Assembly: GCA_965287045.1 (NCBI GenBank)
Contig: OZ336889.1
Span: forward strand, 7,812,001 to 7,876,000
Reading direction: 5' to 3'
Source: Carcharhinus amblyrhynchos
Lineage: Eukaryota
DNA: 64,000 bases
The notes beneath the pieces were generated by a model. That model was not told where the DNA came from and did not search any database. It worked only from the letters and a program-made list of their open reading frames with translations. Within the stretch, counting starts at the first letter, position 1, and each line of letters begins with the position of its first letter. Positions 4,256 to 44,815 of this stretch are shown in pieces. A program made the position numbers and the translations under genes.

Positions 4256-4449
4256 AAAATGGCTAAGTTCTGAAGCAATTAGTCAATGACAAGGTCAGAA
4301 GGCTGTAACATGTCAAGTAGAAAGATGTGCTTGAAACTTGTATTCAACTCTACTGGAAATAATGCAAAAGACCACAAACAGAATCTCTTGTGCTTGCCAT
4401 TTCAATTCTCCCACTCTGACATTGTCTTTTTAAACACAAAGGTATAATT

Positions 4450-20870: not shown

Positions 20871-20967
20871 TGTCCAACGTTAAATAAAATTTAAGTGATT
20901 TGACTGAAGGGATGGTTGTCAGATTTACTGATGACACAAAGGTAGGAAAGTAAATTGTGAAAAGCTT

Positions 20968-21165
20968 TTAGTTTTTATTTATTCGTATCACAGGTAGGCT
21001 TACATTAACACTGCAATAAGTTGATGTAAAAATCTCCTAGTCGCCACACTTCGGCACCTGTTCAGGTACACTGAGGGAGAATTGAACATGGCTAATGCAC
21101 CTAACCAGCATGCATTTTGGACTGTGGGAGGAACACCCAGAGGAAACCCACGCAGACACGCACAA
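20968..21165 (-). mobile_element. V-SINE, 3' half (alternative-tail subfamily)
   Basis: gtaggcttacattaacactgcaat...gaggaaacccacgcagacac; same family as 47125-47410 and 49275-49545. Confidence 0.8.
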
Positions 21166-22986: not shown

Positions 22987-24811
22987 ACCTGATGATTCTA
23001 AAATAATTATTCGTCTCTCTGGCCTTTTAGGTATTTGGATGACTGATGATAAGTGATGGAATGTTGTTGAGCATTCCTGCAATGCCGCAGTCCTCCTTTT
23101 TGGTTCTTAAAATTACACTTGCTATCTTCCACCACTCCAGTATCATGAGACATGTTGATGAAAGGTTATCCAGACTCAACGTTAGCTCTGTTCTCTCTCC
23201 ACAGATGTTATCAGATCTGCTGAGATTTTCCAGTTTTTTTTTCAGATTTCAGCATCCACAGTAATTTGCTTTTACATCAACATATCAATTGAGTTCTTAG
23301 AAACATTAAGCAGAGGACTAATTTACTTCTAGTCATGATTTCTGTTTGTTTTGTCTTTCTTGACTTGTCCTCTCTCTGTAACTACGGTTACCTTTTGCAT
23401 TAATATCTGCGTTCCACAGTTTCTTTTGTTTCATTCCATTTTCAATTCCGTGTGTATTTTACTGAGAAGAAATGTTAATGCCCTTATTCAGTCACTGGAG
23501 TTTTGGTCCTGTAGTTTTCCATTGAAATAATAGTTACTTCACACATTCCAATTCAAAGTATAATCATATTGGAAAAAAACAACAATTTTGTTTGAAATTC
23601 AGTATCACTTCTTAACTTAAATTTCCTTAGAGCTGATAAAATTGCTACAAGATTTGTTCTTCTAAACTATTGGCATCTGTGTTGTTTTGACCTTCCCTTC
23701 TGTTGCAGTTATCAAATCTGACTTTCTAATAAGTGCAAGAACCCAAGCATTCACGCATTTCCAGCCCATTAATTGGTTTGTGTGCGCTGTTAAATGTGGA
23801 TTGAATTCCAGCATCTGTCGCAGAATGCCAGTTCATCAGTTTGTGTTGAGAAAGAACTATTACTTCACTGCTGTTGTTTTTCCCCTTAAACCAAGTTTTT
23901 GGTTAGTTGTTGTACCATTTGTTATGTTGAAAATCCCCATGATTCTCATTTGTTTCCTGCAGCCAGCAATTATTTCTGTTCTTCTTAGCGACATCAGCTA
24001 TTCTGTAGCTGCCTAACTACTCAAACTATTACAGAGATTTTCCTATAACATCATGGCCACTTTTTTAAAATAATAATTCTTGGGCTGTGGATGACACAGG
24101 CAAGGTTATCTATCCTTGTATCCCTTGAAAAGGTGGTGGTGGCTGCTCTTGAACTGTTGCACTCCATGTGGTTAAGGCACTTAAATGCTATCAAGCATTC
24201 AAGGATATTGATCCAGCTACGAGAAAGAAACAATGTTTAACCAAGTTATGAAAGTGTTAGTCTTGGAAATAAATTTGGGGTGATGGTTTCCCATGCACCT
24301 ACTGCTTTGATTGACCTAACTGGAAGTTGTGGGTTTGAGAAGTGTTGACAAAAAAGTTGTGGTAAGTTGCTGCATTCTGTCCTGTAACATCAGTTTGCAA
24401 TTGTAAATTCTGAACATGACTGAAGTTGCAACCACAGTGTTTATGCTGGTGGATGAAGTGCCAGTCAAGCAGGCTGCCTTGTCACTGTCAAACTTCTGAA
24501 TATTGTAGAGAATATTCCATTACACTCCTGATTTTGGTAATAACATAGAAGGACAAGAACATGAATTTGACTACTTAAGCCTTCTGTGCCATTTAGTAAG
24601 GACATGGCTGATCTCCTCCCTCTGTCTTCCTGCAGTCAATTCCTGTAGTAACAAAGATCTATCAATCCCTGTCATTCATGGGATGCAGACATCACTGGCT
24701 GGGCCAACACTTACTGTCCTAATTGCATTTGAACTGAGTGGCCTGGTAGGCCATTTCAGAGGGCATCAAAGACCACGTTGCTGTGAGTCTGAAGTCACAT
24801 CAGCCAGATCA

Positions 24812-25335
24812 GCAAGGATATTTTGGCCCTGGAGGGAGTGCAGAGGAGGTTTACTAGGCTGATACCGGAGTTGAGGGGATTGAGCTATGAGGAGAGGCTG
24901 AATAAACTAGGCTTGTACTCGTTAGAGTTTAGAAGAATGAGGGGAGATCTCATTGAGACGTATAAGATGATGAATGGGATGGATAGGATAGAGGTGGAAA
25001 GACTCTTCCCGCTCAAAAAAGACAGTAGGACTAGGGGGCACAGCCTCAAGATAAAGGGGAGGCGGTTTAGAACGGAGTTGAGGAGGAACTTCTTCACTCA
25101 AAGGGTGGTGAATCTCTGGAATTCTCTGCCCGTTGAAGCGGTGGAGGCTGCCTCGCTAAATATTTTTAAGAAGCGGGTTGATGGGTTCTTGATAAGAGAG
25201 GGGATTAAGGGTTATGGGGAGAGGGCGGGAAAGTGGAACTGAGCCACAACAGATCAGCCATGATCTTATTGAATGGCGGGGCAGGCTCGAAGGGCTAGAT
25301 GGCCTACTCCTGCTCCTATTTCTTATGTTCTTATG
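24812..25335 (+). mobile_element. Young CR1 LINE, 5'-truncated
   Basis: ORF 24823-25242 is nearly identical to the 22240 copy and has the same tail. Confidence 0.93.
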
Positions 25336-26239
25336 ATGGCAGATTTCTTTCTCTAAAAATGTTAGTTTCATGATCATTAGATTTTTAATTCCAGATTTTT
25401 ATTAGATTCAAATTTCACCATCTGCCATGACCCAATGACAATACCACGTCATCGCCTCCCCCTAAAACTAATAACATATTTAATAACTGCATGTCCAACG
25501 CCCTTGAAATCCAAAATTCCAAACATTCAGAATGGTTTGAGTGAAGAAATTTCTCCTCATCAACGCACTGACCTTATTCTGAGACAATGACCCTTCATTC
25601 TCAATTCCCCAACCAGTGTAAACATCCTCACAGCATCTAACCTGTCTGACATTTGTATGGTATTTCTTATTAATTGCTACTTATCAAGCCTGGATATTGT
25701 TCAGTTCTTACTGCATGTGGGCATTCACTGCTTCATTACCCAAGGAAATGTGAATGGAACTGAAGATCTTACAATCATTAATTAGCTAATACCCCGCTTT
25801 CTGACCTCTATTTCTTGTCTGGCTCACTTCATTATTTCAGTGATGTGAGTATTTGTACCAGATGGAAATTACTTTCCAGTGGCTTATTACAAATGCTTCT
25901 GGCGTCAGAATGAAAACCTTTTAACTTTATTGTGATTTGTAATCTTGTTTTGTATTTCAATTTTTTTCCTCCAAACATTTTGTTTTTTATCAGCAGAAGA
26001 ATTATTTACCTATTTTTACAGTAATTATCTCCTCCTCCTAAATCTAATCCAAATGAATTCAATTGCTGTCCAATTTTCAGAAGTAGGAAATCCCTGGTTA
26101 CTTCCAAAACCTCATTCTTCGCAGATCTTGTCAATGGGATTCAATACCTAGATAAAATTGATAGTTAAATTGGGAACTCAATGTAATTACAAAATGATAA
26201 AAGTCTAATGTACAGCTGCATGGAGAAGAAAATGCTGCA

Positions 26240-27093
26240 TTAGATAGGCTGGGCGAATGGGCCAGGAAATGGCAAATGGAATTTAATGTTGGCAAGTGTG
26301 AGGTGGTCCACTTTGGTAGGAAGGACTATTACTTACGGGGCGAAAAACTGCAGCAGGCGACGGTGCAGAGGGACCTCGGGGTACTTGTGCATGAGTCGCA
26401 AAAACCCAGCTTGCAGGTGCAGCAGGTGGTCAGGAAGGCGAATGGGATGCTGGCCTTCATAGCGAGGGGGATTGAATATAAAAGTAGGGAGGTCTTGCTG
26501 CGGCTGTATAGGGCATTGGTGAGGCCGCAGCTGGAGTACTGTGTGCAGTTTTGGGCGCCGCACCTGCGCAAAGATATTTTGGCCTTGGAGGGAGTGCAGA
26601 GGAGGTTTATTAGGCTGATACCGGAGTTGAGGGGGTTGAGCTATGAGGAGAGGCTGAATAAACTAGGCTTGTACTCGTTAGAGTTTAGAAGAATGAGGGG
26701 AGATCTCATTGAAACGTATAAGATGATGAATGGGATGGATAGGATAGAGGTGGAGAGACTCTTCCCGCTCAAAAAAGACAGTAGGACTAGGGGGCACAGC
26801 CTCAGGATAAAGGGGGGGGCGGTTTAGAACGGAGTTGAGGAGGAACTTCTTCACTCAAAGGGTGGTGAATCTCTGGAATTCTCTGCCCGTTGAAGTGGTG
26901 GAGGCTGCCTCACTAAATATTTTTAAGAAGCGGGTTGATGGGTTTTTGATAAGAGAGGGGATTAAGGGTTATGGGGAGAGGGCGGGAAAGTGGAACTGAG
27001 CCACGACAGATCAGCCATGATCTTATTGAATGGCGGGGCAGGCTCGAAGGGCTAGATGGCCTACTCCTGCTCCTATTTCTTATGTTCTTATGT
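26240..27093 (+). mobile_element. Young CR1 LINE, 5'-truncated
   Basis: ORF 26276-26827 begins MEFNVGKCEVVHFG; frameshift in a G-run near 26812-26819; same tail. Confidence 0.93.
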
Positions 27094-27182
27094 ACTCAAC
27101 AGTTTGCATTCCTGTAAGTGTTGTATGTCTAACTGGCTAAAAAAGCCAGAGGTCCAAAGTACACTTCCCTGCCTGAGTTGGG

Positions 27183-27650
27183 GAGTTGAGGGGGTTGAGC
27201 TATGAGGAGAGGCTGAATAAACTAGGCTTGTACTCATTAGAGTTTAGAAGAATGAGGGGACATCTCATTGAGACATATAAGATGGTGAATGGGATGGATA
27301 GGATAGAGGTGGAGAGACTCTTCCTGCTCAGAAAGGACAGTAGGACTAGGGGGCACAGCCTCAAGATAAAGGGGGAGCGGTTTAGAACGGAGTTGAGGAG
27401 GAACTTCTTCACTCAAAGGGTGGTGAATCTCCGGAATTCTCTGCCTGTTGAAGTGGTGGAGGCTGTCTCGCTAAATATTTTTAAGACACGGGTTGATGGG
27501 TTTTTGATAAGAGAGGGGATTAAGGGTTTGAGGAGAGGGCGGGAATGTGGAACTGAGCCACGACAGATCAGCCATGATCTTATTGAATGGCGGGGCAGGC
27601 TCGAAGGGCTAGATGGCCTGTTCCTGCTCCTATTTCTTATGTTCTTATGT
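27183..27650 (+). mobile_element. Young CR1 LINE, 5'-truncated, slightly more diverged
   Basis: ORF 27186-27698 begins RGLSYEERLNKLGLYSLEFRRMRG; same tail. Confidence 0.92.
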
Positions 27651-27698
27651 AAACCAGATGGTGAAGTACAAAGCAAAACATCAATCTTTTTCTTGTAG

Positions 27699-28288
27699 TA
27701 GGGCATTGGTGAGGCCGCAGCTGGAGTACTGTGTGCAGTTTTGGGCGCCGCACCTGCGCAAGGATATTTTGGCCCTGGAGGGAGTGCAGAGGAGGTTTAC
27801 TAGGCTGATACCGGAGTTGAGGGGATTGAGCTATGAGGAGAGGCTGAATAAACTAGGCTTGTACTTGTTAGAGTTTAGAAGAATGAGGGGAGATCTCATT
27901 GAGACGTATAAGATGATGAATGGGATGGATAGGATAGAGGTGGAGAGACTCTTCCCGCTCAAAAAAGACAGTAGGACTAGGGGGCACAGCCTGAAGATAA
28001 AGGGGAGGCGGTTTAGAACGGAGTTGAGGAGGAACTTCTTCACTCAAAGGGTGGTGAATCTCTGGAATTCTCTGCCCGTTGAAGTGGTGGAGGCTGCCTC
28101 ACTAAATATTTTTAAGAAGCGGGTTGATGGGTTCTTGATAAGAGAGGGGATTAAGGGTTATGGGGAGAGGGCGGGAAAGTGGAACTGAGCCACAACAGAT
28201 CAGCCATGATCTTATTGAATGGCGGGGCAGGCTCGAAGGGCTAGATGGCCTACTCCTGCTCCTATTTCTTATGTTCTTATGTTCTTAT
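27699..28288 (+). mobile_element. Young CR1 LINE, 5'-truncated
   Basis: Reads RALVRPQLEYCVQFWAP...GERAGKWN*; same tail. Confidence 0.93.
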
Positions 28289-29764
28289 TCACAAGATGCA
28301 GCATTACAGATCTCTGCCTCCTCACTGCCAGTGTCCCAGCTGACTTTCTTGATGTGTTCTTTTAAATGACCCATAAACCAATAAAATTAACAAATTGACA
28401 AATTAACAGCCCTTAAAGGGGCACTATACAAAAATCAACCTTTGTAAGGAAACTTTCAAATTCAATCAACTAACTCAAATTAAAAGTGTTCCCAGAGCTG
28501 ACTGTGCATTCCAACTGCTGTGACTGCACCAGCGAATACTGCATGATCCTTCTCCAGGAATATCCAGGTGTGAGCACACCCACAGAATAAGAGCAGACAG
28601 GTCAAACAACAACCTCCACAACCCTCAATCTGTTAATGACCACTTGTATCAGGCTCACAATCCGACTCACAAGGAGGTCCTTAATCAAACAATACCCATC
28701 ACCTGTGTATCTTTAATCAACCAATCTTTACCAAGGCTGCCAGTTATAAGGTATCCCAATTCTGGAAAGTAAATACGTGTTTCTTTCAATTGTCTTTAAA
28801 GCACAGTAATGAAAACCACATAATGAACTGGGCTGTGCTGCATGTTATTGCAGGTGGAAATAATGGCATATTCCTAATGTTGAGGAGAGGATTCACAGTA
28901 ACCTTTCCTTTATAGAGGAAATATTGGCAGCTTTATCTGAGTTGTCTGAGGGAAGAGAATAATAATGCTGCCTGACATCCATCCTGTTGCTTGTCACTGG
29001 TTGGTGAACACTTTGGCCACATTTGCCTGTCTTTCCCATGTATATGAGGGGAACATCGTAAGTGATTGTGATGTGCTTTTGTTATGGAAAGAAGGATGGG
29101 GAAGAGAAGAGAAATTTTCAGTATTTTACATGCTTAATTATATAAAAAAGGGGTCGCTTCTACAACTTTAAATGGCATGTGGTAATCAATCATAAGAGTA
29201 TTCACAGCCAATAAAAATGCCTTTGATATGGAAAGACCATTTCTCATATCCACAGTCCTGCAACAACAACTGAAGATCTAGAGTTAACTCATTGAAGTCA
29301 TAATCTCTACCTTCTACAGAGTATGGCTTTCAGAAATTCTTTGGTTCAGTTTCTTCTCATTAAGAACAATGCAAGGAATATTTTGAAAGCTACAGCTGAG
29401 ATTCTTTCCTTTGCTCTTTGAAGCATCTTTCATGCTGCAGAAAATCCTTTCAGCTGATGCAGTTATTTCTGTAAGATGAACAGTGCTGTGGATCTGACTA
29501 TTGATATTGCCATGGTAGCTACTCAAGGATTCTAGTGTTAGTGTGAAGTGAATGTGAGAATATTGAGGACTCTGTTCTGGTCTGCCTTATGATTTCAGTT
29601 TTAACACCAATGGATAAGAGTAAGAAAGTATACTGCTGTACTCACATTTAGTGGAGATGCTGGTATTGGACTGGGGTAAACACATGTTGTGAGACTACTT
29701 ACTGTGTTTACTCACATTTTGACAGCTTTTCACCGTTTACATTTTTTAAATAAAACTACAAAAG

Positions 29765-30154
29765 GTTCTGAATGTAGTCCAATCCTTCACGCAAACTAGC
29801 CTCCCATCCATTGAGTCTGTCTACACTTTCTGCTGCCTCAGCAAAGCAGTCAGAATAATTAAGGACCCCACACATCCCCAGGCATCCTCTTCCCACCTTC
29901 TTCCATTGGGAAAAAGATACAGAAGTCTGAGGTCACGTACCAACCGACTCAAGAACAGCTTCTTCCCTGCTGCCATCAGACTTTTGAATGGACCTACCTT
30001 GCATTAAGTTGATCTTTTTCCACCCTAGCTATGACTCTAACACTACGTTCTGTGCTGTCTCCTTTCCTGCTCTATGAATGGTATGCTTTGCGTATTACAC
30101 AAGAAACAATACTTTTCACTGTGTACTAATACGTGTGACAATAAATCAAATCAA
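29765..30154 (+). mobile_element. Rex1/Babar LINE 3' end
   Basis: Translates IIKDPTHP...HLLPLGKRYRSLRSRTNRLKNSFFPAAIRLLN, the Rex1-type ORF C-terminus; tail caataaatcaaatcaa. Confidence 0.8.
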
Positions 30155-31204
30155 CAATCCAATAAATTCTCTGAACCCAGCTACGAAGTGTGTGCATTTT
30201 AGTATGATTAGTTGTTAACTCCATATTTGCATTCTTCATTGTATTGGAAAGGTCCTTTTATCAAAATTGTACCTATTGAGACGGTCAGAACTTTATGGTA
30301 TTCCAGCAGAAGAGTTTTATGTATTAGCTCAATTCATTCAATTTAAAATCACCACAATTTCTTCCAACAAGTTAACTGCCCTGAGCAATAATGAGATGTT
30401 TTTAATGGTTGCGTTATTACATTAAGTTAATATCTGGCCATTTGATCGCCGCATTTTTTTTAAACTATATGGTATATTGGCCCACAAGTTAATGCTGTGA
30501 CATTATGGCCATTCTTGTAACCTGGAAATATTTAAAGTAACTTTAATTTTTCACCAAACACTTAATCACCATTTTATCAAGTTAATTTTCAGCTTCTGCT
30601 TCCACCTGTTCAGTTGGATTATTATAATAGTTTTAGATATTGAGCTTGACACTGTACAGATAGATTAAGCAGATTAGAATGTGACTTTAACAAGTATCTA
30701 CTCATTAGATGGGGATGCACAAGACAGTTCTTTTGATAACTACATATTCTGAAGGAGGGACCAAAAAAATCCATTCTTTACGGTTCTTACTGGTTTTGCT
30801 AATTCACAAAACCGATATCCAGTGAAGACTATCTCCAGGCAAGTATTATCTGTTGCTGCAGCAGCTACATCATTTCAAAAAAACTGGCAGTTTTCTGTTT
30901 CTCTGAGAAATTTTTGAAATAGTTTGCAGTCATGTAATGGTTCTGGATGTAAGCAACTCTGAACCACTGTTGTTTCCTTTGGATTTTTTTATTTGGCAAC
31001 TTTAATGCTGGGAATAAGAATTGGGGCTTTCACAGGAAAGTCCTAAAAGAACTAATCAGAAATTTTAGAAATCACACCATGCTTTCCTTAACCCGGCCTC
31101 CAAAAGCTGTGTTATGATCTGGTTTGTCTATGAAATTACAAAATGTGGCCTTAGTTTATTATTTTGAAACTTATGAATTTGGTATTGCAGTTTGAGATGG
31201 TAAG

Positions 31205-31340
31205 CCCAGCTCCTGCCCATCCACTCAGGTGGGGATAGAGGACTCCATGGCACTCTTGAATCAGAGCAGGGGAGTTCAACAAGTGTCTTGGACCTATATC
31301 TTTCAGCATCAGATGGATAAATGTCATTGTAATGGTCTAG
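31205..31340 (+). mobile_element. Ancient Deu-domain SINE fragment (SacSINE/AmnSINE-like)
   Basis: ctcaggtggggatagaggactccatggcactcttgaatcagagcaggggagttc resembles the Deu core as I recall it; degenerate. Confidence 0.5.
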
Positions 31341-32154
31341 AATGTTGCCGCACTGTCAATAATTAAGACTGACAGTGTGGCACAGGTGGTTATTGACAGC
31401 TGCAGATGCTTAAGCTCCACAATCACCTTTAATGTTGAAATCAACATTTTTTTGCTTTCCAACTTAATATTGATATGGTTCTTGGTCCACTGTAATACAA
31501 TCGACAGAGTGTAGTTACTCATTTGTCCTTTATTGAGTTTGCTGTTTTTCCTTTTAATGTTGATTTCAGTGTGCAAACTAGGATAAACTTTGTACCACCT
31601 GCAAAGAATGCATTTGGGCCATACTGGGTATAGTGTAAATTGAGAACAGAAAATATCCTATTATGTTCTGACCTTAAAACCACAGACTAATTGTTTCCTG
31701 TAATTATACTTTTTGTTGCTTATTTTGGAACCACTAAATATTTGGATTTCTTGTTAAGCTCAACTCTGTACACAGTAACACAATGTTTGTTCTGACAATG
31801 GAAGTAGCAAACTGACAAGAAATGCATTCACTGTAGTCAAGGGTTTACTTCTAGCTGTTGTACAATGCATTTCTTGAGCATTTTTAACTAGGAAATACGC
31901 CTTCATTCCTCAGAAAATGAAATGAAGAATGGAAGCTAGAGTAGGAAGGCTGACAAAAAGCTTGGTTGAAAAGAGAAATTTTAAGTTGGGTCTTAAGGGA
32001 GAAGAAAGAAATAGCATGCCAGAATGTATCAAGAGGGAATTTCAAAATCTGATTAAGGAATGGTCATGCAAGTGGGCAGAAGAAAGGGCAAAGGAACACA
32101 GAATGGCAGTGGCAATTGTAAGGTTATGGGATGTTGAATATAAAGTCAGAGGTT

Positions 32155-32690
32155 TATAGCACGGAGATAGACCCTTCATCCCAAATTGTCCATGCCACCC
32201 TTTTTTTAAACCACAAAATTAGTCCCTATTGTCCGCATTTGGCCCATTTCCTTTAAAGCTATCTTACCCATGTAACTGTCTAAATGCTTTTTAAAAGACA
32301 AAATTGTACCTGCCTCTACTACTACCTCTGGCAGCTTGGTCCAGGTACTCACCACCCTCTGTGCGGGGGAATAAAACGCCCTTTTGGACACTTTTGTATC
32401 TTCTCCCCTCTTGCCTTAAACCTACGTCCTCTAGTTTTAGACTCCCCTCCCTTTGGAAAAAGATATTGACTATGTCGCTGATCTATGCCCCTCATTATTT
32501 TATAGATCTCAATAAGATCACCCCAAACCACCTACACTCCAGAGGAAAAAGTCTCAGTCTATCCAGCCTCTCCTTATAACTCAACTCATCAAGTCCCAGT
32601 AGCATCCTAGTAAATCTTTTCTGCACTCTGTCTATTTAATAATATCCCTTCTATAATATGGTGATCAGAACTGTACACAATCTTCCAAGT
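32155..32690 (-). mobile_element. CR1 LINE 3' end (older subfamily)
   Basis: Minus-strand peptides GDLIEIYKIMRGID and QRVVSTWTKLPEVVVEAGTILSFKKHLD. Confidence 0.85.
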
Positions 32691-33561
32691 ATATGGGGAT
32701 GGGTTTAGGTCGGGAGAAGGGTGGGAGTTATGGACAAAATGGTGCGGTGTTGGGAGAGAACAGCAGTGAGCGAGTCTCTGGCCATGATACTGGTGGAACG
32801 GTGTGAGTGCTGTTGGTTGAACAGTTGCAGTACCAGTTTGTTGGTGAATCAGGAATTGATGTTGTCAATGTTTTAAAAATTTAGTGACCTCTCTTCCCCA
32901 GTGGATGAACTCAATTTTTCAAAAACTCTAGCATGTGAATACCAGGATAGTGAAAGATTAATTAGATGGACCATGTGTCAGTTTTGATCTTGTAGTTCCT
33001 GTATTACTATTCAAAAGATCAATCCACTTACTCCCAGTATGCTGTTGTCTCTCTTCTTTACTGAGACCATTAACAGTTGGGAGAAAGATGGTTCCCGTTA
33101 TTAGATTTTACTTTTGCTCACTATGAAATAACTGCCTGGTACCACAATTTGTCATCTGAAAAATATAGATGTGAAATCCCCTTGAAGGTTCTGCTGCAAA
33201 ATATTAAAGCATCTGTACCATTGAGAATTTACAGAACAAGTTACTGAGCAGTATGGTTCTGAATAATTAAATTTAACTTTGACTTTTTTCTTCACTGTTT
33301 AAATGTTGCTGATTTTGGTGAAGAGGTATGAGGGTTCAGATGGTGATCACTGCATCATACAGTGCAGAAGAGGCCCTCCGACCCCTCGAGTCTGCACTGA
33401 CATGAGAAACGCTTAATCCCATTTAGCAGCACTTGGCCCATAGCCTTGAATGCAATGACATGCCAAGTGCTCATCCGGGTATTTTTTATAGGATATGAGG
33501 CAACCCACCTCCACCACCCTTCCAGGCAATGCATTCCAGACCAATACCACCATCTGGGTTA

Positions 33562-34200
33562 AACAAGAAGTTTCACAACACTAGGTTAAAGTCCAACAGT
33601 TTATTTGCTATCACAAGCTTTTGGAATGCTGTTCCTTCATCAGGTGAGTGGAGAATTGGGTTCACGAACATAGCATTTATAGACGGAGACTTGATTGCAA
33701 GATAATGGTTGGAATGCGAGTCTGTATAGGTAGTCAAGTTTTTACAGATACAGTCAATGCAAGTGGAGAGAGGGATAATAACAGCTTAAAGAGGTGTGAA
33801 TTGTCTCAAGCCAGGACAGTAAGTAGGATTTTGCAAGCCCAGGCCAGATGGTGGGGGTTACATGTAGTGTGACATGAACACAAGATCCTGGTTGAAGCTG
33901 TCCTCATGCGTGTGGAGCTTGGCTATCAGTTTCTGTCTGGCAATTCTGCATTGTCATACGTCTTGAAGGACGCCTTGGAGAAAGCTTACCCGAAGATCGG
34001 AGGTTGAATGTCTTTGACTGCTGAAGTGTTCCCTGATAGGAAGGGAATACTCCTGCCTGGCGATTGTTGCACAGTGTCTGTTCATCCATTGTCGTAGCGT
34101 TTGCATGGTCTTGCTGCCATGCCTCGGGACATCGTTTCCTGCAGCGTGTGAGTCCATGCAGATGTTCTGGCAACGGATGAATGGACGCTTCAAGGGTTCC
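33562..34200 (-). mobile_element. Penelope-like element 3' part with GIY-YIG endonuclease remnant
   Basis: Peptides RCRKRCPEAW and TMQTLRQWMNRH...SLPIREHFSSQRHSTSDLRV fit the PLE GIY-YIG domain. The terminal sequence (ggactttaacctagtgttgtga on the - strand) is also seen in fragments near 18165-18228 and 29650-29710. Confidence 0.8.
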
Positions 34201-34375
34201 ATTCAAGGGTATTCAGCCTCTGACCTCATTTATGCTGCTCATGCACCTCAGTCATGTTGCCCCTCAGCCTTCTCTGCTCCAACGAAAATAACCCAAGCAT
34301 ATCCAACCTCTCCATGACTTAAATGCTCCATCCCAGGCAACATCCTGTTAAATCTCTTCTGCACCCCCTCCAGTA

Positions 34376-34801
34376 TGTGAGAAACACAGCTCACAGTTAA
34401 ACAATTTAGTCAAGTCAAGTTCTGAAGGAGCAAGATTTTATTTGTCGTTCTTGCAAGACCGGGTGTCTAGTCAAAATAGGCACACCTTACATAGATTTGC
34501 AGCACATTTTATACTGTTTTTCAAACATTGTGATGGCTTGTATTGTGTTATTCCCCCTTATTTGGCTGTTAACCTTGTTAACTTTAAACACTGTAAATGG
34601 CTTGTATTGTGTCATTCCTTCAATTAACACTCTCTCAACTCCCATTTTGCGCTTAATCTCATCACTGTGGTTATCTGTTTCGTGTAACCTAGTTAACTGT
34701 CTGTCATGTGCCTCCCCCTTTCTGTATGCTGCTGAACTCGTCCATCACTGCTGATTGTACTGTTGGCTCTTGCAGCCTTAAAAATTACACTACTTCTCAC
34801 A
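34376..34801 (-). repeat. ERV 3' LTR (426 bp)
   Basis: No difference from 39635-40060 found by eye. On the - strand TATAAA is at 34508-34513 and AATAAA at 34437-34442. A 16-bp direct repeat atggcttgtattgtgt occurs at 34533 and 34597. Confidence 0.95.
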
Positions 34802-34803
34802 AT

Positions 34804-34820
34804 CCCCCCTTTTCTTTTTT
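34804..34820 (-). other. ERV polypurine tract
   Basis: AAAAAAGAAAAGGGGGG on the - strand, 2 nt from the 3' LTR. Confidence 0.9.
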
Positions 34821-34905
34821 ACTGTCTGTAATTTTTCACTAGCATCCCTTTTTCCAGGTTTAGTCCAGATATGCGCGAGTAGGTTGTTCCAGTTTGGCTA
34901 ACATA

Positions 34906-36301
34906 CTATTCACTTGCTCGTCCCAATCTTATATAATTTATCCAATCTACGTTCTTATTTATTGTTACCCACCAAAACAAGGATTCAAACCCAGCTGTAA
35001 TCTGATTTCGAGCTTTAAATTCATCTGGAACTCCCCGAGGCACTCCTATGGGATCTAGATATATCTTTTCATCAAAAGAAATTCCTATCACTGATCTCTT
35101 GTTTTTCCTGATCCTTTTGATTTTTCAAATGCCAGGGTAAATGGTATAGCCAATTGGACAATTGCACATGTACCTTTCCACTGAGGGGGTAGAGTTGGCC
35201 TCAGTACCCTTCCTCCACAATACCACCATATATCTGCTCTGGGGATTTTCAATGATGAATAGTTCCCTCCCATTCCGTTCTCTGTAATGCTCCTGACCTC
35301 TGAGCATGATTCTAACTCCCCCATATTATGAGTTAACTCTGCCCTTTGTCGGTTCACACATGAAGTGTGATTCACAACGGCAGTGAGAAACTGAGGGGGA
35401 GTTTTTAAGTTCTTTGCTTCCACAGGAGGGAACATCAGGGATAGGGATGTGCAGTTCGGGTTGCCCCATGCTTCCTTTTCTTGATACAGGGCTAACATGC
35501 ACTCCATACCTCTTCTGTCGCGTTTCCATCCCAGAGGGAAGGGTACTATTTGGGCCACTGGCTTCCCAGACGCACAGGCATAGCAATTGCTTTTATTTAA
35601 GCTTTTTACAGTGTATTTGACCCATTCTACCCAGGCATTAGTCTCCTCATACCCAGTCTCTATTTCAAGGATTTGTTTTAGGTTGTTTACTTCGACCACT
35701 CTTACTGCCCTTGGGTCGTTTTGGGGAACCTTATCATTCTAGTCAGGTGTTTTCAAATTTTTATCTACATAGATTCGGAAACAACATTTCAATTTGCTAT
35801 CTTTTCCTCCCTCCTTTACCCTAATTCCAAATACTGCCTGGTGCAATTGTTGGTCCCTGGTCCAGTTACCTGTAAAGAAGGGCCCACCAGCTATGGAGTA
35901 CCGGGAGAGGTTCTTAGGATCTAAGACTGGACTGCTTATTTTTTTTTTTCAGTCCATTTGGTCCCTATAAGATTGTATTCCTTATCTAGGCATTCTGATC
36001 TTGGCTGCATATGTTTCTGATGAAGGGATATTATGGAAGGGAGTTTACCCCAAGGATACTTTCCGTCGGCATAAAATTGTAAGGATTCTACCGAATATTT
36101 TTGCTGGCTCACCAGATCCCCACATATTACCAAAGAACACAGGTCTGTCTCTACTACCTGTGTTGTAGTGAGATCCAGAACCGTAACTGAGCTCATAGTG
36201 TTTCCCTTGTCCTCTTCTAACTTATCTGAATTATATCCCATACTTGTAAGTACTCTCTTGGACAAGAGGAAGGAAAGCATTATCCAGGTTACCCCTTCCA
36301 T
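34906..36301 (-). pseudogene. env: ERV env pseudogene (signal peptide, SU, start of TM; TM anchor deleted)
   Basis: Signal-like N-terminus MEGVTWIMLSFLLSKRVLTS, CXXC motif CYAC, basic cleavage site RKNKR|SVIG, and DPIGVPRGVPDEFKARNQITAGFES...DWINYI. Lesions: A-run frameshift near 35940, in-frame TAG near 35740, frameshift near 35110, truncation after DWINYI. Confidence 0.85.
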
Positions 36302-36389
36302 TCTATCCCTTTCTCGTTACCTTTTAGGAGAGAACTTAATTCAAAACAGTTCCTTTCCCGCGCTCACGCCGCAACTAAAAATTGATTAT

Positions 36390-36895
36390 TTAGAGTCTTT
36401 TAAATTTCAGCTTCAAAGGTTCTTCAGTCAGTTTGACCATCCACGTGTTGGAATTATCTGGAGGTTTTACCAGTCCCTTGATTATAGTATGATGTGTCCA
36501 CCCCTTTTCAGCAGTCCTGATTACTGTCTCAGTTGTTAGGAGTGCTTCATATGGTTCCTCCCATTCCGGTTGCAGCTTAGTTTCTTTCCATGACTTTACC
36601 AGGACCCGATCTCCTGGTTGAATTGTATGTACCGTGAAGTCGAGGGCTGGAGTCTGCGACAATAATCCTTGTTTCCTAAGGGGAGATATCGAGGAGGACA
36701 GGCCCAGTATATATTTCTTTACAAATTGATCATTCATTTCAGGAACCGGTAACTCCCCGACTGCCCCCATATAAGGTAGTCCAAATAGCATTTCATAGGG
36801 GGATAAACCCAAATCCTTTCGAGGAGCTGTACAAATACGCAAAAGTGCTTTTGGTAAGCACTTAGTCCAAGGGAGTTTCGTTTCTATTATCAGCT
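36390..36895 (-). pseudogene. pol: ERV pol: integrase C-terminal half only
   Basis: Reads ETKLPWTKCLPKALLRICTAPRKDLGLSPYEMLFG...QPGDRVLVKSW...PEWEEPYEALLTTETVIRTAEKGWTHHT. The zinc finger and the first DDE residues are missing. Confidence 0.88.
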
Positions 36896-37490
36896 TAGAT
36901 CCTCTGTCCACTTTAAAACATTAGGTTCTTCTTCTAACAGTTTCAAATATAGTTGTTTAGTTTTCTGTGCGTACCCTTTGATCCACAATCTACAGTATCC
37001 TACTAATCCCAAGAACCTCCTAAGTTCCTTTTTAGTCCATAGTATATTTAGATCTAGGATTCCTTGTATTCTTTCTGGATCTATTCTTCTCCTTCCCTCA
37101 CTGATTAGGTGTCCAAGGTATTTAACTTCCTTCTCTACGTACTGCAGCTTTTTCTTTGACACCCTGAATCCCTGTTGTCCCAGATAATTCAATAAGCTAT
37201 TTGTGGCTTCTATTACCTTTTCCTTTCCTCCTCCTGTTACTAGTAGGTCATCTACATATTGTAACCATCCGTGATCAGGAGGAATCTTGCTTAATAAAAT
37301 ATAAGGATTAGGGACAATGGGGTGTCGCATCGTCACTATCTGGTTCAGGGCCCTTAGGTCCTGTACCAGGCGGTACGTTCCCTCAGGCTTCTTTACAGGC
37401 AATATAGGGGTATTATAAGGGGACATGCAGGGTTCTAACAGTCCATCTCTAACCAATCCTTCAATTACTGGCTGTAAATTTTCTCCTTGT
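36896..37490 (-). pseudogene. pol: ERV pol: reverse transcriptase with internal in-frame deletion
   Basis: GLLEPCMSPYNTPILPVKKPEGTYRLVQDLRALN...PPDHGW is joined directly to LQYVDDLLV at about 37264, so the DLKDAF and LPQG motifs are absent. YLGH and RFLGLVGYCRLWI follow. Confidence 0.9.
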
Positions 37491-38055
37491 CGTCAGCCCA
37501 ATTTTTTTTACCCAAGACTGAGATGTGTTCAATTAATCTGGTTTAAACCTGTTCAATTAATTCAAACTAAGAGAATTCCAATTTTCTTAGTTCTGTCCTT
37601 TTTTTTCAATCATTTCCATTGTTGATCTAGTGGGTGAAATGGATCCCACCCCTAGGTCGCTCTTATCACAGTCCGGTGATACCTATCAGGGGTGATCAGT
37701 CCCCTCCGTACCACCGCTTACACTCGTGAGCTTACACCTTTAAGCTCACACTATTAAGCCGGCTTTCTTTCTTACTCACGTCTGAACATCACATCCCAGG
37801 CATCCTTCTCTAGCCTTTACACCCACTTCAAACTCCTGAGCTTTGCGTAGGGGGCTACCCCTCTTAACAACTGGTCTAGGGCTAGGTGTAAAGACAGATG
37901 CCTCCTTGTCTGTACGTGCTCAGCTCAGACCTCTCACACACACTCACACTTTTTCATCACAGATGAGCACCTACTGTACTTTGATTCACTCCCTTAAATT
38001 TGGTAATCTGTTCCGGAGCTCCAGTTGTGGCCATTCAACCGGACCCGTAAACAGA

Positions 38056-38073
38056 TCCCAGGTTTCAGCACCA
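38056..38073 (-). other. Second, internal primer-binding site (tRNA-Phe-like)
   Basis: TGGTGCTGAAACCTGGGA versus the tRNA-Phe PBS TGGTGCCGAAACCCGGGA: 16/18, with both mismatches being CpG to TpG. Confidence 0.7.
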
Positions 38074-38984
38074 ATCCTTGTAGGTAAAGATACCTCTGAG
38101 ACTAATTGTGGGTCAAAGTACAGCAGTTTAATTAACAAAGCCTGATTCAGAAAATCCAAAATAAGATTTATTTTTATCACCATTAAATATCCTCACTAAA
38201 TCAAGACCCTTGCACCTTCTTACAATTCTGGTACAATAAAACAAAACATCACTTGGAGCACAGATGCACGAAGAAATACTGAAAGCATTCTAATGTGCAA
38301 TCTATATGTTTAATTATTTCTACAGCTCTGCCTTTGTAACCAACACAGGCAAGTACAAAATCAAATCTACTATGTGCCTAAATGGTTATCTCTCCTCACA
38401 ACTTTAAAATGCAATATAATGCCACCTTTCCCACTTGGCAGAATTCAAATCTCTGTCCGATCCCTACATAATTTAGTAAACTTAAAAACTTAAAGCAATT
38501 CACTTTGATTGGCTATATCTATTACATCACATGAGGGTCTCAATTACACAGTTACACCCTCTCTCTCTCTCTCTCTGTACCATACAGAGTCAGCCTGCTT
38601 GTCTCTTTTTAACCCTTTACTGATGGGAGCTCACTGGCCTCTAATAAATTTGACCATGTTTGATTCGGGTGCCTCATGTCGTGACAAATCCCTTTCTCTC
38701 TCAAACAGTCATATAGTCATGCACAATTCCAAATACATAACCACTATGAGCGTTCTCCCCGCACCTCAGTAAAAGCCCATGTCAGGGTTCCCAGTTCCAC
38801 TGACATACTTCTCTCTACCTCTTTCTGCTCAGACCAATTGTAGGTCCATCCCATTCATGCTGATCCATCTATATACTTCGTGACCCATCCACAAACTCCA
38901 GTGCCTCTAGGGGCACCTCCCTTATTCGACTTTCCTCTGTTCCCTCATCACATAACCTCCCCCGCAGCCCCTAAATTAACATTA

Positions 38985-39366
38985 TCCAGCAACTTGCATG
39001 ATCAATTCCTTCCTGGGACGCCGGCTGCTTCTGTCTCACATATTTATTAAGAATCTGACAAACCCAATCCTCAACCGAACCGTACTTTGGCCAGAAGACG
39101 GACGGACTCCTGATTGGTTCCTTCACCCAAACAAAACACAATATTTCATCATTGTCGTCTTGTTTTTATCCCTAGTACTAGTGCCCAAACCTTCCAACAT
39201 CCTTCCCAACGGACTTTCTGGAGGGATGTTCCCTGGGGCCCCACCCTTCTTCCAACATCCGTCCCAAAGGACTTTCTGGAGGGATGTTCCCTGGGGCCCC
39301 ACCCTTTCTCCGCGGATTCCCAGCACCTTTCCCGGGGGACTTTGTCCTACTACCCCCACTTCCCAT
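38985..39366 (-). pseudogene. gag: ERV gag 5' remnant (matrix), frameshifted
   Basis: Starts MGSGGS (myristoylation consensus MGxxxS). IPPESPLGRMLE...MMKYC and, in another frame, SVFWPKYGSVEDWVCQILNKYV resemble the matrix of HERV-I-like gags. Confidence 0.75.
39191..39306. repeat. 58-bp tandem duplication inside gag
   Basis: Two copies of cttccaacatcc(t/g)tcccaa(c/a)ggactttctggagggatgttccctggggccccaccctt, at 39191-39248 and 39249-39306. Confidence 0.9.
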
Positions 39367-39614
39367 GGTTTACCTACCACGACCCGGTCGCCAAGGCAAT
39401 ACTTAAAAGTCACTTTTCTTACCTTGGTCCGCAGTGTTGCCCGACCACACGACGGTGCCTATCGTTTCCCACTTACTCGTTCAGAACAACTTTCCTAGGA
39501 TTCTCAACAGTCAGTGGCAGAGAAGTCCACCGATGAACACCTGGGACCATTCAATTTGGAACGGGACGCATCTTCCCAGTTGTCACCGGCAACCTCCCTA
39601 CCAGGGATGTTAGG

Positions 39615-39632
39615 ATCCCGGACGAGCCCCCA
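39615..39632 (-). other. ERV primer-binding site, tRNA-Pro
   Basis: TGGGGGCTCGTCCGGGAT is the canonical 18-nt tRNA-Pro PBS (as in MLV), 2 nt from the 5' LTR. Confidence 0.95.
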
Positions 39633-39634
39633 AT

Positions 39635-40060
39635 TGTGAGAAACACAGCTCACAGTTAAACAATTTAGTCAAGTCAAGTTCTGAAGGAGCAAGATTTTAT
39701 TTGTCGTTCTTGCAAGACCGGGTGTCTAGTCAAAATAGGCACACCTTACATAGATTTGCAGCACATTTTATACTGTTTTTCAAACATTGTGATGGCTTGT
39801 ATTGTGTTATTCCCCCTTATTTGGCTGTTAACCTTGTTAACTTTAAACACTGTAAATGGCTTGTATTGTGTCATTCCTTCAATTAACACTCTCTCAACTC
39901 CCATTTTGCGCTTAATCTCATCACTGTGGTTATCTGTTTCGTGTAACCTAGTTAACTGTCTGTCATGTGCCTCCCCCTTTCTGTATGCTGCTGAACTCGT
40001 CCATCACTGCTGATTGTACTGTTGGCTCTTGCAGCCTTAAAAATTACACTACTTCTCACA
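39635..40060 (-). repeat. ERV 5' LTR (426 bp)
   Basis: TG...CA ends, adjacent to the PBS. TATAAA on the - strand at 39767-39772. ORF-track translations are identical to those in the 3' LTR. Confidence 0.95.
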
Positions 40061-43000
40061 AGTACTTCCTATAATATGACTATAACTGCACACAGTGCTC
40101 TAGCTGTGGCCTCATCAAAGTTCAATAGAACTCCAATATGAATACCTGCTTTTGTAATCTATGGCTCAATTGATAAAGGCTCTTTTACCTTCAGAGATCT
40201 GTGGACAAACAAACTAAGGTCCCTTTGTTCCACAGAACTTCCTAATGTTATGCCGTTTAACAAATTTTGTCAAATTACTCCTTCCGAAGTGTATACCCCT
40301 CACTTTGCAGGATTAAATTCCATCTGCAACTTATCTGCTCACTTGGCCATTCCGTCTGTATCTTGTAGCTCAAGACGCAGCCTCACCTGGCCAATCTTTG
40401 TGTCATCTACAAACTTTGTTATCCTACCCACTACATTGTCATCTATGTCATTCGTATAAATGGCAAATAATAGGGCACCCAACATTGATCCCTGTGGTAT
40501 GCCACTGGACACTGGCTTCCAGTCACTAAAGTAGTCTTCTGTCATCATCCTCTGTCTCCTACAACAGAGCCAATTTTGAATCCATTGTATCAGATTACCC
40601 TGTATCCCATGCACATTTGCCACCTTTATAAGTCTCCCACGTGGGAACTTGTCAAAGTCTTTGCTGAAACTCGTGTAAACTACATTAACTGCACTACCCT
40701 CATCACCACCTCAAAAAGTTGAATCACGTTTGTTAGGCATGACCTCCCTCTGATAAAGCCATATTGACTGTTGCTGATCAAGCCTTGCCTTTCCAAATGG
40801 CGATAGATGCTCTCCTTCAGAATTTTCTCCAGTAGTTTCCTGATGATGTGACACTCACAGATCTGTAGTTCCCTGGCTTATCTCTACAACCCTTCTTAAA
40901 TAACAAAGCCACATTAGCTGTTCACCAATCCTCTGACACCTTCCCCCATGGTGTGGAGATGCGTTTACTATCAACTAAACCTGTTGGACCTCCCCCCCAT
41001 GGCAGGGGGAATGAAAAATTTGGGTCAGAGCATCTATAATCTCCTCCCTTGTCTCCCACAGCAGCCTGGGACACAATTCATTTGGCCCTGGAAATTTGTC
41101 CACTATTATGGCTGCCAGCACCTTCAGTACCTTGTCCTTCCCTATGTCAATTTGCTCAAGAACCTCAGTTTCCCTCCCTGAATTCCACATCATCTTCATC
41201 CTCCTTGGGTGAAAATGGATGTGAAGTATTCATTCAATAGTCTATCAATGTCCTCTGGCTCCACCCACAGATTGCACCTTTGGTCCCTGAATTTGTTAAC
41301 ATTTATTCTCAAAACAGCTGTCTCATTTTATCACCTGGTTGCTAGCACTTTGCACATTCCCAATTTTGTGGATAGGCTGTGCTGTAATCTTCATTTGAAA
41401 GCAATTTTTGAAACAAATATGGAAATGGACAAAAAGAAACATACGGAAGGAATTGAATAAAACTTGTTTTTTTTCCTGTGGAGCGATGATATCCTAAACT
41501 TTAAATTGTGAAGTGAAAGAAATAATTTCAAGCTAAGTAATCCAAAACTACAAGCAAAGTAATCCAATGGTATTAATTTGTATTTAGATTTATCCTGCTG
41601 CTCTTTTGGGCTGTTCAGAACACTAACTAAGGTTTAAAGAATATGAACACTTCACAAGTCATTTTATAAGCACATTTCAGACTAGCTTCATAACTAGAAA
41701 TTTGAATCCTTGTTGAAAAGTGTTTGGCAACACAGCAAAGATTATTGTCAGTTATTATCCCAGCTGCCATCCTTCCCACGTACTTGCTCATCCTCCTATT
41801 GGCATTGGATGTGTCTGGAGGAATGTTTGCCATTGAAGAGCTCACCAAGTATGTAATGTATTCTTTTTAAAGCTCTTGGAACTGCCATTTTTTGATCACT
41901 TGGGTTAAAGCATAGCTCTTCAGCCTGCCAAATTTGACAAACTCCAGTGTCAGTAGTCTTGTTTCATTTAACAGCATATAGTTAGTGGTGCCATGAGGCT
42001 GATAAATGTTAAGCTGAATATAACACTGAAATATGAATATTACTAAGGGAAGACCACCTGGAGCTTTGCACAGATACAAGCCAAACTCGCTCTTCCCAAC
42101 AGCTGCCACATTTTGTCATCTGGTTGCGAGCATTTTGCATGTTGATAGTTTTGTGGATGATTAGTGCTGTAATATGTAGTGGAATCATGGTCAAAATCTA
42201 CAATTATTTTTATCCTCTGCTCCTCCACTAAACAGTTAGAATTACAACCTCTATCATCTTGCCAGCCCTGCTATACCAAAAAGTTACTTCTCCAGTTCCA
42301 GAAATGCAACTAGTGCATTCCCAAGATCATTAAGCACCCAAACATTTGGTTTTCTTCTCTGCTGTAACTCCAATGAATTGTTCTTCAATTCACTTAAGAA
42401 CAGATTGTGCCACCCTTCCCTCACCAATTTTTCTGACCTCTCCCCCTGCTTGCACTGTTCCTATATGATGCATGTACTATGATGACCATACCAATCAAAC
42501 TAATCATCCTCAGTGGAAATGACCATGCATTATTCTGGTTGGAATGGGCTTTTAGCTGATCTCTCCTCTTTGTTCTCTTTCCCCATCTTCTCTTCACCCC
42601 CCCCCCCCCCCCCCACCTTCCTCTGTCCCCATGAGAAAGTTAAATGCGTTTCTGTTTTGTTTTTTATTGTATTAACACGTGACACACAAACAGTTCAGTA
42701 TATGATTGTGACTAATAGAAACGTGCCTTTTCTCCATTACATTTCTGTACCAAATTTAGTATTCCGTGTTGATCATTGCACAATCTGACATGTCAATGGA
42801 TCCAATGAACTTCTCTTTTGTTGGAAATAAGTGATTGGCTAAATTAACAGTGAAACATTCGTGAACAGTTCCCAGTTTATGTGAATCAACCTAATGTATG
42901 AATGCAGGATGGTTACCCAGTTCAGGGGACTGTTTCTTTTGGGCACATGGAGTTAATCACTGCAGAGGAGGAATAAAAGACTTAAAGCAAAAAATGGCTG

Positions 43001-44815
43001 TGACGGTGATTAAGCAGCAAATATTGTCCCATTTGATTTATCCTGCTTGGTTTTGTTCACAGAATCAGCAGCACAACCACGATGCCTGTGCCAGCTCTCT
43101 ACAAGAGCTTTCGACTTGGTTCTACCTCCCTGTCCTTTGTTTGTTAAAGATGTTTGTTTTCTGTTAATATTTGTCTGCCTCCCTTTCTCAAAAAATACTT
43201 TAGATCAGCTTCTAGCACTGTTTTCTGGGAAATCATTTCAGCTCCAAATTGTTAAAATAATGCTGACCTCTCACTTCATTCATTTGCTAATGACTTTGCA
43301 TTTGTGTTCACTTCTACAAACATTAGCAGTTAAATTGTGTTTTCCCTATTTTACTTTAACAAAATGTCTTAATTTTGAATGCTTGTATCAGGTTTCCTTA
43401 ACCTCATTTCAATGAAAGCAAACAATCAGTTTAGCATTACACCTTGACCTTTATATTCTGTGCCAACAGTTATAAACATGAGAATCCGTGTTTGTTTCCA
43501 ACATATTTTCAACTAATCCTTTCAATTTAAAAGTTTTGTACATTTTAATCCACAAGCCTCCTTGATCCTTTGCTTCTTCCTTTTCCTATATGGTGCATAT
43601 TTTGTTGGCTTTTACTTCTTTAAAAAGTTAACGACATAATTTTCATCTGATATTTATCTGCATTAACTTGTCTGTCCTTTTTGAGCTTGTTTATCTTAAC
43701 AGTTAAGTAACTAAATTTTCTCCAGCTAATATTCATAATCTGCATGTGTACTGAGAAGAACAATATTTTAATGGTTACCCCTAAGAGAGACCACTCGTTA
43801 CATCCCTGCAGTTTGAAAAGCACACATTAACCATAACTTTTGTTCTTCAAGTAACTTCCTGTAAGTTGGTCAGACATGATTTGCCTTTCACAAGTCATGC
43901 TTGGCTAACTTTTAATTAATCTGTGCTTTCCAGGTTTTTAAGTTTAGTCTATGCTATTACATATTGAAAGATACCGACTCTTTTACAGTTGATTAGAATA
44001 TTTCTACTGCTTTGGACAATGTTAAAATTGGCCATCTTTCAGATTTATTACATAACTTCCATACGTTCAGGAGATGGAAAGACTGTGGTCAGAGCTGGTA
44101 CCATTACTCCTCTAATTTCACTTGGCGCTGTCGGCTGCTGACAGGACGTGGGTGTCTTTTCCACTGAACTTCACCAATTTTCTGACTTCCCTGTCTCCAG
44201 TTATCCAATCTAATTGCTGAAACTCCTCCTCTTGTATCTTTTAATTGCTAATGCTGCATTCCATTCCATTAAAACCGAAGCAAATGCTCAGTCAGGATTT
44301 CTGCCATCCCTTTTATTTTTAATAAGATTTGCTTTTTTAATGTTTAACTGGGCTGGTGTTTTTTGTTCTTTGTGTTCAAAAATTTCTTTACTGCCTCCCT
44401 TTATTACTTTCCAGCCTTTGTGTTTGTGCTCCAATCTCCCATTCTTTTACCCCTCCATTTTCTATATTTCACAAAGTTTTCTTCTGCACTAATATGATAT
44501 GATATGCTTCTTCGTTTCCCCAGATGTCACTTTAATTTTCGTTACCTTACTTATTCAAGGAATGCCACCCAAATAGTGAATGTTCGATAACCAAGAATTT
44601 TTAGCTCCCAGTTATGCCATAGGCTAAACAATACATGTTAACCCTATTTGTTATACCTCACCCTATTCATAGTAATTGGCCATTTTTGTTCACCAGTTTT
44701 AACCATAATATATCTTAAACTTTTTATATACATGGAACTATCTATTTTCATGCATTGAGAATGGTGGCGAGTTCAGTTAATGAACACGAATTAAATGTCA
44801 TTACTGTCTTCTCAG

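What the first reader, a model, noticed from the sequence alone, without database searches (positions are those of the whole stretch)
34376..40060. Very recent ERV integration whose genes are all dead: a non-autonomous element copied in trans
Seen: the two 426-bp LTRs show no difference by eye, and the TSD, PBS and PPT are perfect. Yet gag is frameshifted and truncated, protease is absent, RT lacks its DLKDAF/LPQG core, IN lacks its N-terminal half, and env has two frameshifts, a stop and no TM anchor. Known: LTRs are identical at integration. Inference: the lesions pre-date this insertion, so a defective RNA was packaged and integrated by a helper, which implies a recently active class I retrovirus in this lineage. 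The RT and matrix peptides resemble the HERV-I group.
Basis: partly seen in the sequence, partly recalled or inferred. Interest (0 to 1): 0.7.

Follow-up and report, generated by a model that had tools for sequence, protein, structure and literature searches.

The report
Defective shark retrovirus, borrowed promoter
This is one of about a hundred near-identical copies of a gene-dead retrovirus in a shark genome that carries the promoter end of a different, still intact-looking retrovirus family and was likely copied around the genome by that family's proteins.

Summary
Confirmed: 426-bp LTRs identical, 4-bp TSD, PBS and PPT present, all genes broken. The element sits antisense in an ARVCF intron of a shark. 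It belongs to a family of at least 99 copies averaging 0.42% apart. Loss of RNase H and the integrase core, and the env truncation, are shared by 32 of 32 two-LTR copies, and coding remnants drift near neutrally, so copying was in trans. The family is a three-way mosaic: body from a dead lineage C, 1.5 kb from a third family F, and PPT plus U3 from family A (315/320 identical). Family A is young, and 7 of 21 loci have three long open frames. No intact lineage-C pol was found, so A is the likely helper (not shown); family B is the rival. An empty orthologous site exists in another organism's run. 'Very recent' is overstated: pooled LTR divergence of 0.18% allows 0.4-4 Myr or more. This is the ETn/MusD or recKoRV pattern in a new form. 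None of the 3 earlier notes listed for this genome describes it.

The parts
34372..34375 (+). left copy of 4-bp target-site duplication
   Evidence: empty site with one copy in run X10
34376..34801 (-). 3' LTR, 426 bp, hybrid: U3 from family A, R/U5 from lineage C; TATA at about 34513, AATAAA at about 34442
   Evidence: diagnostic sites are A-type to LTR position 286 and C-type from 300
34516..34930 (-). tract derived from family A: last 128 nt before the LTR, PPT and U3
   Evidence: 315/320 over PPT+U3 to the closest A subgroup; env just upstream is about 72% to A and 93-97% to C
34804..34820 (-). polypurine tract
   Evidence: sequence
34930..36316 (-). env remnant, aa 1-466 of 649; two frameshifts and one stop; cut off at 34930 by the switch to family A sequence, so no anchor
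   Evidence: switch shared by 32 of 32 copies; 99 exact hits genome-wide
36393..36899 (-). integrase C-terminal remnant (MLVIN_C)
36885..36905 (-). family-wide junction joining RT to the IN C-terminus (Pol aa about 420-991 lost)
   Evidence: 32 of 32 copies; also in the older pre-swap element L130
36908..37477 (-). RT remnant, with a 219-bp deletion private to this copy at 37264/37263
37470..37485 (-). second private deletion junction (374-394 bp relative to siblings)
37477..38985 (-). 1.5-kb segment from a third LTR family (F): internal piece, then U5 end, second PBS and leader
   Evidence: 82-85% to F loci L113, L114, L121, L129
38056..38073 (-). decayed second PBS (tRNA-Phe type; label recalled)
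   Evidence: 1-3 mismatches in 32 of 32 copies
38983..39472 (-). gag remnant (matrix region only; ATG at 39366) with a 58-bp tandem duplication at 39191-39306
   Evidence: duplication in 30 of 32
39615..39632 (-). primer-binding site (tRNA-Pro type; label recalled), also found in families A and B
39635..40060 (-). 5' LTR, identical to the 3' LTR
40061..40064 (+). right copy of target-site duplication
3570..44799 (+). host context: 41-kb interval between two consecutive ARVCF exon matches (3480-3569 and about 44800-44943); the element is antisense to the gene

Best explanation
The element is one copy of a ~100-copy, gene-dead, recombinant class I endogenous retrovirus of a shark, and it was likely packaged, reverse-transcribed and integrated by the proteins of a second young family (A), whose PPT and U3 it carries. 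Shown: the shared deletions, the mosaic structure, separate integration of each copy, near-neutral drift of its coding remnants, and no intact pol of its own lineage among the search hits. Inferred order: (1) a lineage-C provirus took up 1.5 kb of family F; (2) it lost RNase H and the IN core (L130 still shows this stage, with the old LTR and a full-length env match); (3) RNA of that element and of family A were likely co-packaged, and two template switches (one homologous near the TATA box, one non-homologous at 34930) gave it A's U3 and cut its env; (4) with a promoter now likely active in the same cells as A, it amplified through several source copies while losing more sequence (7.4 kb, then 6.3 kb); (5) this copy lost two more pieces (5.7 kb), either during its own reverse transcription or afterwards.
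For: Copy number: 99 exact hits of the 34930 switch and 225 of an LTR 26-mer, controls 0, which implies few solo LTRs. Similarity: mean pairwise difference 0.42% among 14 copies. Shared lesions: RT-IN junction and switch in 32 of 32. Separate integrations: 29 of 32 two-LTR copies have their own 4-bp TSD. LTR pairs differ by 0.45 within a copy and 1.56 between copies, with 9 haplotypes among 18 identical pairs. Selection (N/S of distinct variants): family RT 0.88, IN 0.82, env 0.86 and 0.67; A pol 0.32, gag 0.45, env 0.57 (rough counts). Own lineage: only 2 of 40 scored hits (56 candidates) for the RT-RNase H connection are lineage C; L023 has a broken pol and the other was fetched but its frames were not read. 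Family A: 7 of 21 fetched loci have three long open frames, and 5 of those have identical LTRs. The A-derived tract is 452/465 to the closest subgroup, with sharp switches, and gives the family A's U3 att end (first 10 nt identical). Empty site: in run X10 a contig has 46/46 left flank plus 29/30 right flank, and the left 46-mer is unique in the genome.
Against: Shared U3 shows past contact with A, not who supplied the proteins during the burst. The best match is to an older A subgroup (569-bp LTRs, 3-7 differences between LTRs in the two pairs measured), not to the youngest A copies. R, U5, PBS and leader (where the packaging signal would lie) are lineage C, and pol is only about 70% identical to A. 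Family B is equally young, under selection (pol 0.31) and shares 31 nt of U5 end plus PBS exactly. Other chimeras with the same F segment carry other LTRs and env that is 70-78% like A/B (L126-L128), so several helpers may operate. Expression, co-expression and present-day activity were not shown. DNA-level recombination for step 3 is not excluded.
Confidence: 0.68

Rival explanations
1. Same non-autonomous family, but the helper during the burst was family B, or an exogenous or unfixed virus (including an intact lineage-C virus) missing from this assembly; the A-type U3 is an older acquisition.
For: B shares the U5 att end and PBS exactly over 31 nt, is young and under purifying selection. 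The leader is C-type. One assembly cannot show polymorphic proviruses.
Against: Only A left a long recombinant tract in the family. All 32 copies carry it, and the only pre-swap element found (L130) is 94% identical, i.e. older. No intact C pol was found.
Confidence: 0.22
2. One reading: every lesion, the RT-core deletion included, came from a source copy, and the insertion is extremely recent.
For: 0/426 LTR differences; only 4 substitutions private against 49 other copies; LTR haplotype shared with L001 and L003.
Against: The RT-core junction is single-copy in the genome. Four private substitutions in 5,683 bp (0.07%) is about the family's per-lineage average (0.09%). No polymorphism within the species was shown.
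Confidence: 0.07
3. LTR identity and copy number come from assembly collapse, gene conversion, segmental duplication or LINE-mediated copying.
For: One tandem arrangement sharing an LTR exists (L147); raw long reads were not inspected.
Against: 29 of 32 copies have distinct 4-bp TSDs and complete LTRs; LTR haplotypes are copy-specific; solo LTRs L015-L017 have TSDs; the family is also seen in independent short-read contigs.
Confidence: 0.03

Closest known systems
Koala recKoRV (KoRV x PhER), PMC6112702 (passages read)
   Same: Defective recombinant of a young virus and an older element; TSDs at each site; co-packaging proposed; breakpoints shared across copies.
   Different: recKoRV keeps KoRV ends around a foreign middle (as described in PMC10924933). 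Here only PPT+U3 come from the young family; R, U5, PBS, leader and body come from another lineage, plus a third family.
Bovine ERVK[2-1-LTR] D-type / C-type pair, PMC10924933 (passages read)
   Same: Defective copies outnumber competent ones (85% against 15%); recombination shows co-packaging; trans-complementation assumed.
   Different: That pair is one ERVK clade with shared flanks and measured de novo insertion. Here it is class I, helper and passenger pol are about 70% identical, and activity is not measured.
Mouse ETn / MusD, PMC6466679 (passages read)
   Same: Non-coding LTR element mobilised by a coding partner, more numerous than it.
   Different: ETn descends from MusD and trans-mobilisation was shown experimentally. 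Here the body descends from a different lineage than the presumed helper, and the link is inferred.
Shark ERVs: CmiERV and the lemon-shark ERV, PMC4422223 (first 10,000 of 14,366 characters read)
   Same: ERVs in cartilaginous fish; the lemon-shark sequence is described as closely related to a human ERV.
   Different: CmiERVs are epsilon- or SnRV-like and dated to more than 50 Myr (LTR divergence 2.4-3.3%). This family is about 15 times less diverged, and its RT groups with snake, stingray and bird ERVs.

Membership tests
Class I (gamma-like) ERV | RT closest to gammaretroviral RT | tested here: met
   Sibling RT hits the MLV-type RT chains at 4e-79, against 9e-34 for foamy-type and 6e-21 for HIV-2
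Class I (gamma-like) ERV | Gag_p30 capsid with one CCHC knuckle, MLV-type IN C-terminus, TLV_coat env | tested here: met
   MLVIN_C in the window; Gag_p30 + zf-CCHC and TLV_coat in lineage C relatives and in A and B; capsid is absent from the element itself
Class I (gamma-like) ERV | 4-bp TSD, TG..CA LTRs, gag and pol in frame across one stop | tested here: met
   frame layout in families A and B
HERV-I-related group | RT clade containing HERV-I | not testable with these tools
   No HERV-I reference was among the 120 hits listed; the two original papers are not held. The tree places it with snake and stingray ERVs (96/85) beside bird ERVs including Passer, which fits my recalled host range of that group but is not a test
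Non-autonomous, trans-mobilised ERV | Disabling lesions shared by many separately integrated copies | tested here: met
   32 of 32 share two junctions; 29 of 32 have their own TSD; 99 copies
Non-autonomous, trans-mobilised ERV | No purifying selection on coding remnants | tested here: met
   N/S 0.67-0.88 against 0.31-0.32 for A and B pol (rough counts, no significance test)
Non-autonomous, trans-mobilised ERV | A coding partner shown to mobilise it | tested here: inconclusive
   Family A is implicated by the shared PPT+U3; B is not excluded; no functional test
recKoRV/ETn/D-type architecture | Both ends (whole LTR, leader, 5' gag) from the helper, only the middle swapped | tested here: not met
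   R, U5, leader and gag start are lineage C; only PPT+U3 are family A
Invading ERV (ERVi, PMC10435555 criteria) | Identical LTRs, intact genes and insertional polymorphism | tested here: inconclusive
   The element fails 'intact genes'. Family A has 5 of 21 loci with identical LTRs and three long open frames; polymorphism was not tested

The most novel reading that the evidence does not exclude
A helper-dependent retroviral parasite changed hosts at the virus level by taking the promoter and att end of a distantly related (about 70% pol identity) active retrovirus, is still mobile in sharks today, and has travelled between shark species in that helper's particles. Hints: run X7 (another organism label, no cover of the unique flank) holds a 99.3% contig across the same switch at low depth; run X11 has the hybrid LTR; run X10 has near-identical flank sequence yet lacks this U3.
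Probability: 0.15. Interest if true: 0.75.

Novelty: new variant of a known kind. Interest (0 to 1): 0.48.

Why it matters
A 2,004-genome survey confirmed no invading ERV in 13 cartilaginous fishes (PMC10435555, Supplementary Data 8), and the shark ERVs dated in PMC4422223 are over 50 Myr old. This genome holds at least two young, intact-looking class I families plus a defective passenger with at least 99 copies, more than either family shows. The passenger's stepwise history is readable, down to the recombination that gave it the presumed helper's promoter just before it amplified. That makes a testable case for how a defective ERV switches to a new helper lineage. The single locus itself is an ordinary antisense intronic insertion.

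Tried and rejected
Splicing as the source of the two private deletions: no GT..AG ends and 1-nt microhomology; rejected. A whole nested family-F LTR at 38985-38080: my first guess, rejected because 38953-38127 matches F internal sequence. The second PBS as a working primer site: decayed in 32 of 32 copies; unlikely. The siblings' RT frame (longest piece 190-346 aa in the 13 siblings) as a cis contribution: no RNase H and N/S 0.88; rejected. An autonomous copy with the same LTR: 9 further loci (10 stretches), chosen for odd LTR spacing or as unexamined copies, hold only insertions or other deletions and none covers the IN core; about 60 of 99 copies were read, so this is not exhaustive. Expression: no RNA holder listed; X5 is only guessed to be RNA; not used as evidence. 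Contig depth (element about 1,200-1,400 against flank 14.8 in X1; about 1,900 against 12.8 in X3) fits roughly 90-150 copies, but the tool warns it is no copy number; not used as evidence of polymorphism. Empty or filled allele in X1 and X3 (same flank sequence as the window): no bridging contig was shown, because the flanks are repeats. One search was an uninformative pattern search with 0 hits. Literature searches listed no paper on this family; the library lacks most subscription journals. The tree used 38 RT rows: 9 from this genome and 29 of 30 chosen database proteins out of 120 listed; one fell below the length filter. The window's own RT was left out because its core is deleted.
Full report
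Observation. The two LTRs (34376-34801 and 39635-40060) are identical over 426 bp and are flanked by a 4-bp TSD, with a PBS and a PPT in place; the element reads on the minus strand. Against a full-length Pol 77% identical in RT (P0003), the window keeps aa 157-232, 293-419 and 992-1159. Gag is reduced to matrix-region pieces, and env covers aa 1-466 of 649 in three frames without the anchor. The host gene is ARVCF on the plus strand, with the element antisense in a 41-kb intron; the tested exon is identical to shark proteins.

It is a family. The LTR search gave 964 first-look candidates; all 40 scored were at least 99.5% identical. Exact patterns count 99 internal-bearing copies and 225 LTRs, with controls at 0, which leaves roughly 27 solo LTRs. 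Fourteen copies differ by 0.42% on average. Of 32 two-LTR copies, 29 have their own 4-bp TSD. LTR pairs differ by 14 substitutions over 31 pairs (18 identical) against 1.56 between copies, in 9 haplotypes. That pattern is what separate reverse transcription and integration give; collapse or conversion would not.

Which lesions are old. The RT-to-IN junction and the env cut at 34930 are in 32 of 32 copies. The junctions at 37264 and 37478 are in 1 of 32, and 37264 occurs once in the genome with one mismatch allowed. All 39 other loci scored hold the RT core. The family falls into nested classes: about 7.4 kb (18 of 50 loci carry the marker), about 6.3 kb with at least two junction types, and this 5.7-kb copy. 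Distinct variants among 50 loci give N/S of 0.67-0.88 in the remnants, close to neutral.

It is a mosaic. Most of the body is 88-97% like an older lineage C with different, roughly 600-750-bp LTRs (L021-L023, L026-L030), and its RT nests in that lineage (100/98). The stretch 38985-37477 comes from a third family, F: an internal piece followed by a U5 end, a second, decayed PBS and a leader, 82-85% to free F loci. From 34930 into the LTR the sequence switches abruptly to family A. Upstream env is about 72% to A and 93-97% to C; downstream it is 94-95% to the A loci first tested, 452/465 to the closest A subgroup and 315/320 over PPT+U3. Diagnostic sites put the return to C between LTR positions 286 and 300, at the TATA box. 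L130 has the same RT-IN junction with the old LTR and a full-length env match at 94%, which is the stage before the swap. The missing env anchor is thus a by-product of this recombination.

Helper. A search with the IN core, which the family lacks, found about 65 near-full-length matches at 58-72%, many inside frames of 1,163-1,165 aa (150 of 2,246 candidates scored). Those fetched sort mainly into families A and B, about 70% apart in pol and about 67-70% from the element's RT. Seven of 21 A loci have three long open frames and 5 of these have identical LTRs; 1 of 8 B loci does. Both show purifying selection (pol 0.32 and 0.31). Lineage C has only 2 loci with the RT-RNase H connection among 40 scored; the one whose frames I read is broken. 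By established retrovirology, template switching between two RNAs needs both in one particle, so the A tract is physical evidence of contact with A (inference; DNA recombination is not excluded). It also supplies A's promoter and U3 att end. Against A: the leader and U5 are foreign to it, B shares 31 nt of U5 end and PBS, and the best match is an older A subgroup. I put A at about 0.68 and B or an unsampled virus at about 0.22.

Age. The 17 pairs picked through pol (not biased by LTR identity) differ by 13/7,242 = 0.18%. That is 0.4 Myr at 2.2e-9 per year, 4 Myr at the 2.2e-10 per year assumed in PMC4422223, or 1.3 million generations at 7e-10 per generation (PMC10587355, passages read; computation). 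For this copy, 0/426 bounds the age only below about 16 Myr at the slow rate; its 4 private substitutions are average for the family. Run X10, from another organism label, has the empty site with one TSD and no contig of this U3 at 97% or more; the left flank is unique in the genome. So the insertion post-dates that split, or is polymorphic if X10 is conspecific. Polymorphism within the species was not shown.

Comparison. It works like ETn/MusD, recKoRV/KoRV and the bovine ERVK D/C pair (PMC6466679, PMC6112702, PMC10924933; passages read). It fails their shared architecture, in which both ends come from the helper and the middle is swapped: here only PPT+U3 do. Class I membership is met. HERV-I membership is untested; the label is recalled and the original papers were not held. 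Four searches listed no account of this family. PMC10435555 (section 6 and supplement rows read) reports 0 of 13 cartilaginous fishes with a confirmed invading ERV.

Verdict. New variant of a known kind; interest 0.48.

Noticed in passing
L126-L128 (G000 C17, C21): Other young chimeric elements (repeat pairs 98.4-99.8% identical) carry the same family-F segment at 92-95% but have other LTRs and a partly different env; L126 is a tandem. The F segment recurs in several defective families and had 915 first-look candidates against 188 for pol, so it may hold a useful cis signal.
   Followed up: partly
family A and B loci among L031-L060: Two young class I families about 70% apart in pol, with open gag, pol and env frames in several loci and purifying selection including env, which suggests spread by reinfection. 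Each deserves its own study.
   Followed up: partly
runs X7, X10, X11 on window 34280-35562: X7 holds a 1,076-nt contig across the switch with 8 differences and 1 gap at depth about 12, but no unique flank. X11 holds the hybrid LTR and both parental continuations at 34930. X10 has the empty site and only the lineage-C continuation. The distribution across organisms is unexplained.
   Followed up: partly
window 22241-28285 and 1060-1758: Five near-identical (mostly 97-99%) 3' fragments of a CR1-like LINE are clustered within 6 kb, with a sixth inverted copy at the window start.
   Followed up: no
L078, L084, L139, L141, L144: Several family copies already carry insertions of 1.0-1.7 kb inside (LINE-like in L078), which argues that they are not brand new.
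   Followed up: partly
L098, L014: Partial LTRs in inverted orientation next to a full LTR or a half element; rearranged copies.
   Followed up: no
L025: A related ERV whose LTRs hold long arrays of a 22-bp repeat.
   Followed up: no
window 3480-55949: Eight exon matches of ARVCF on the + strand; the tested exon is 100% identical to several shark proteins.
   Followed up: yes
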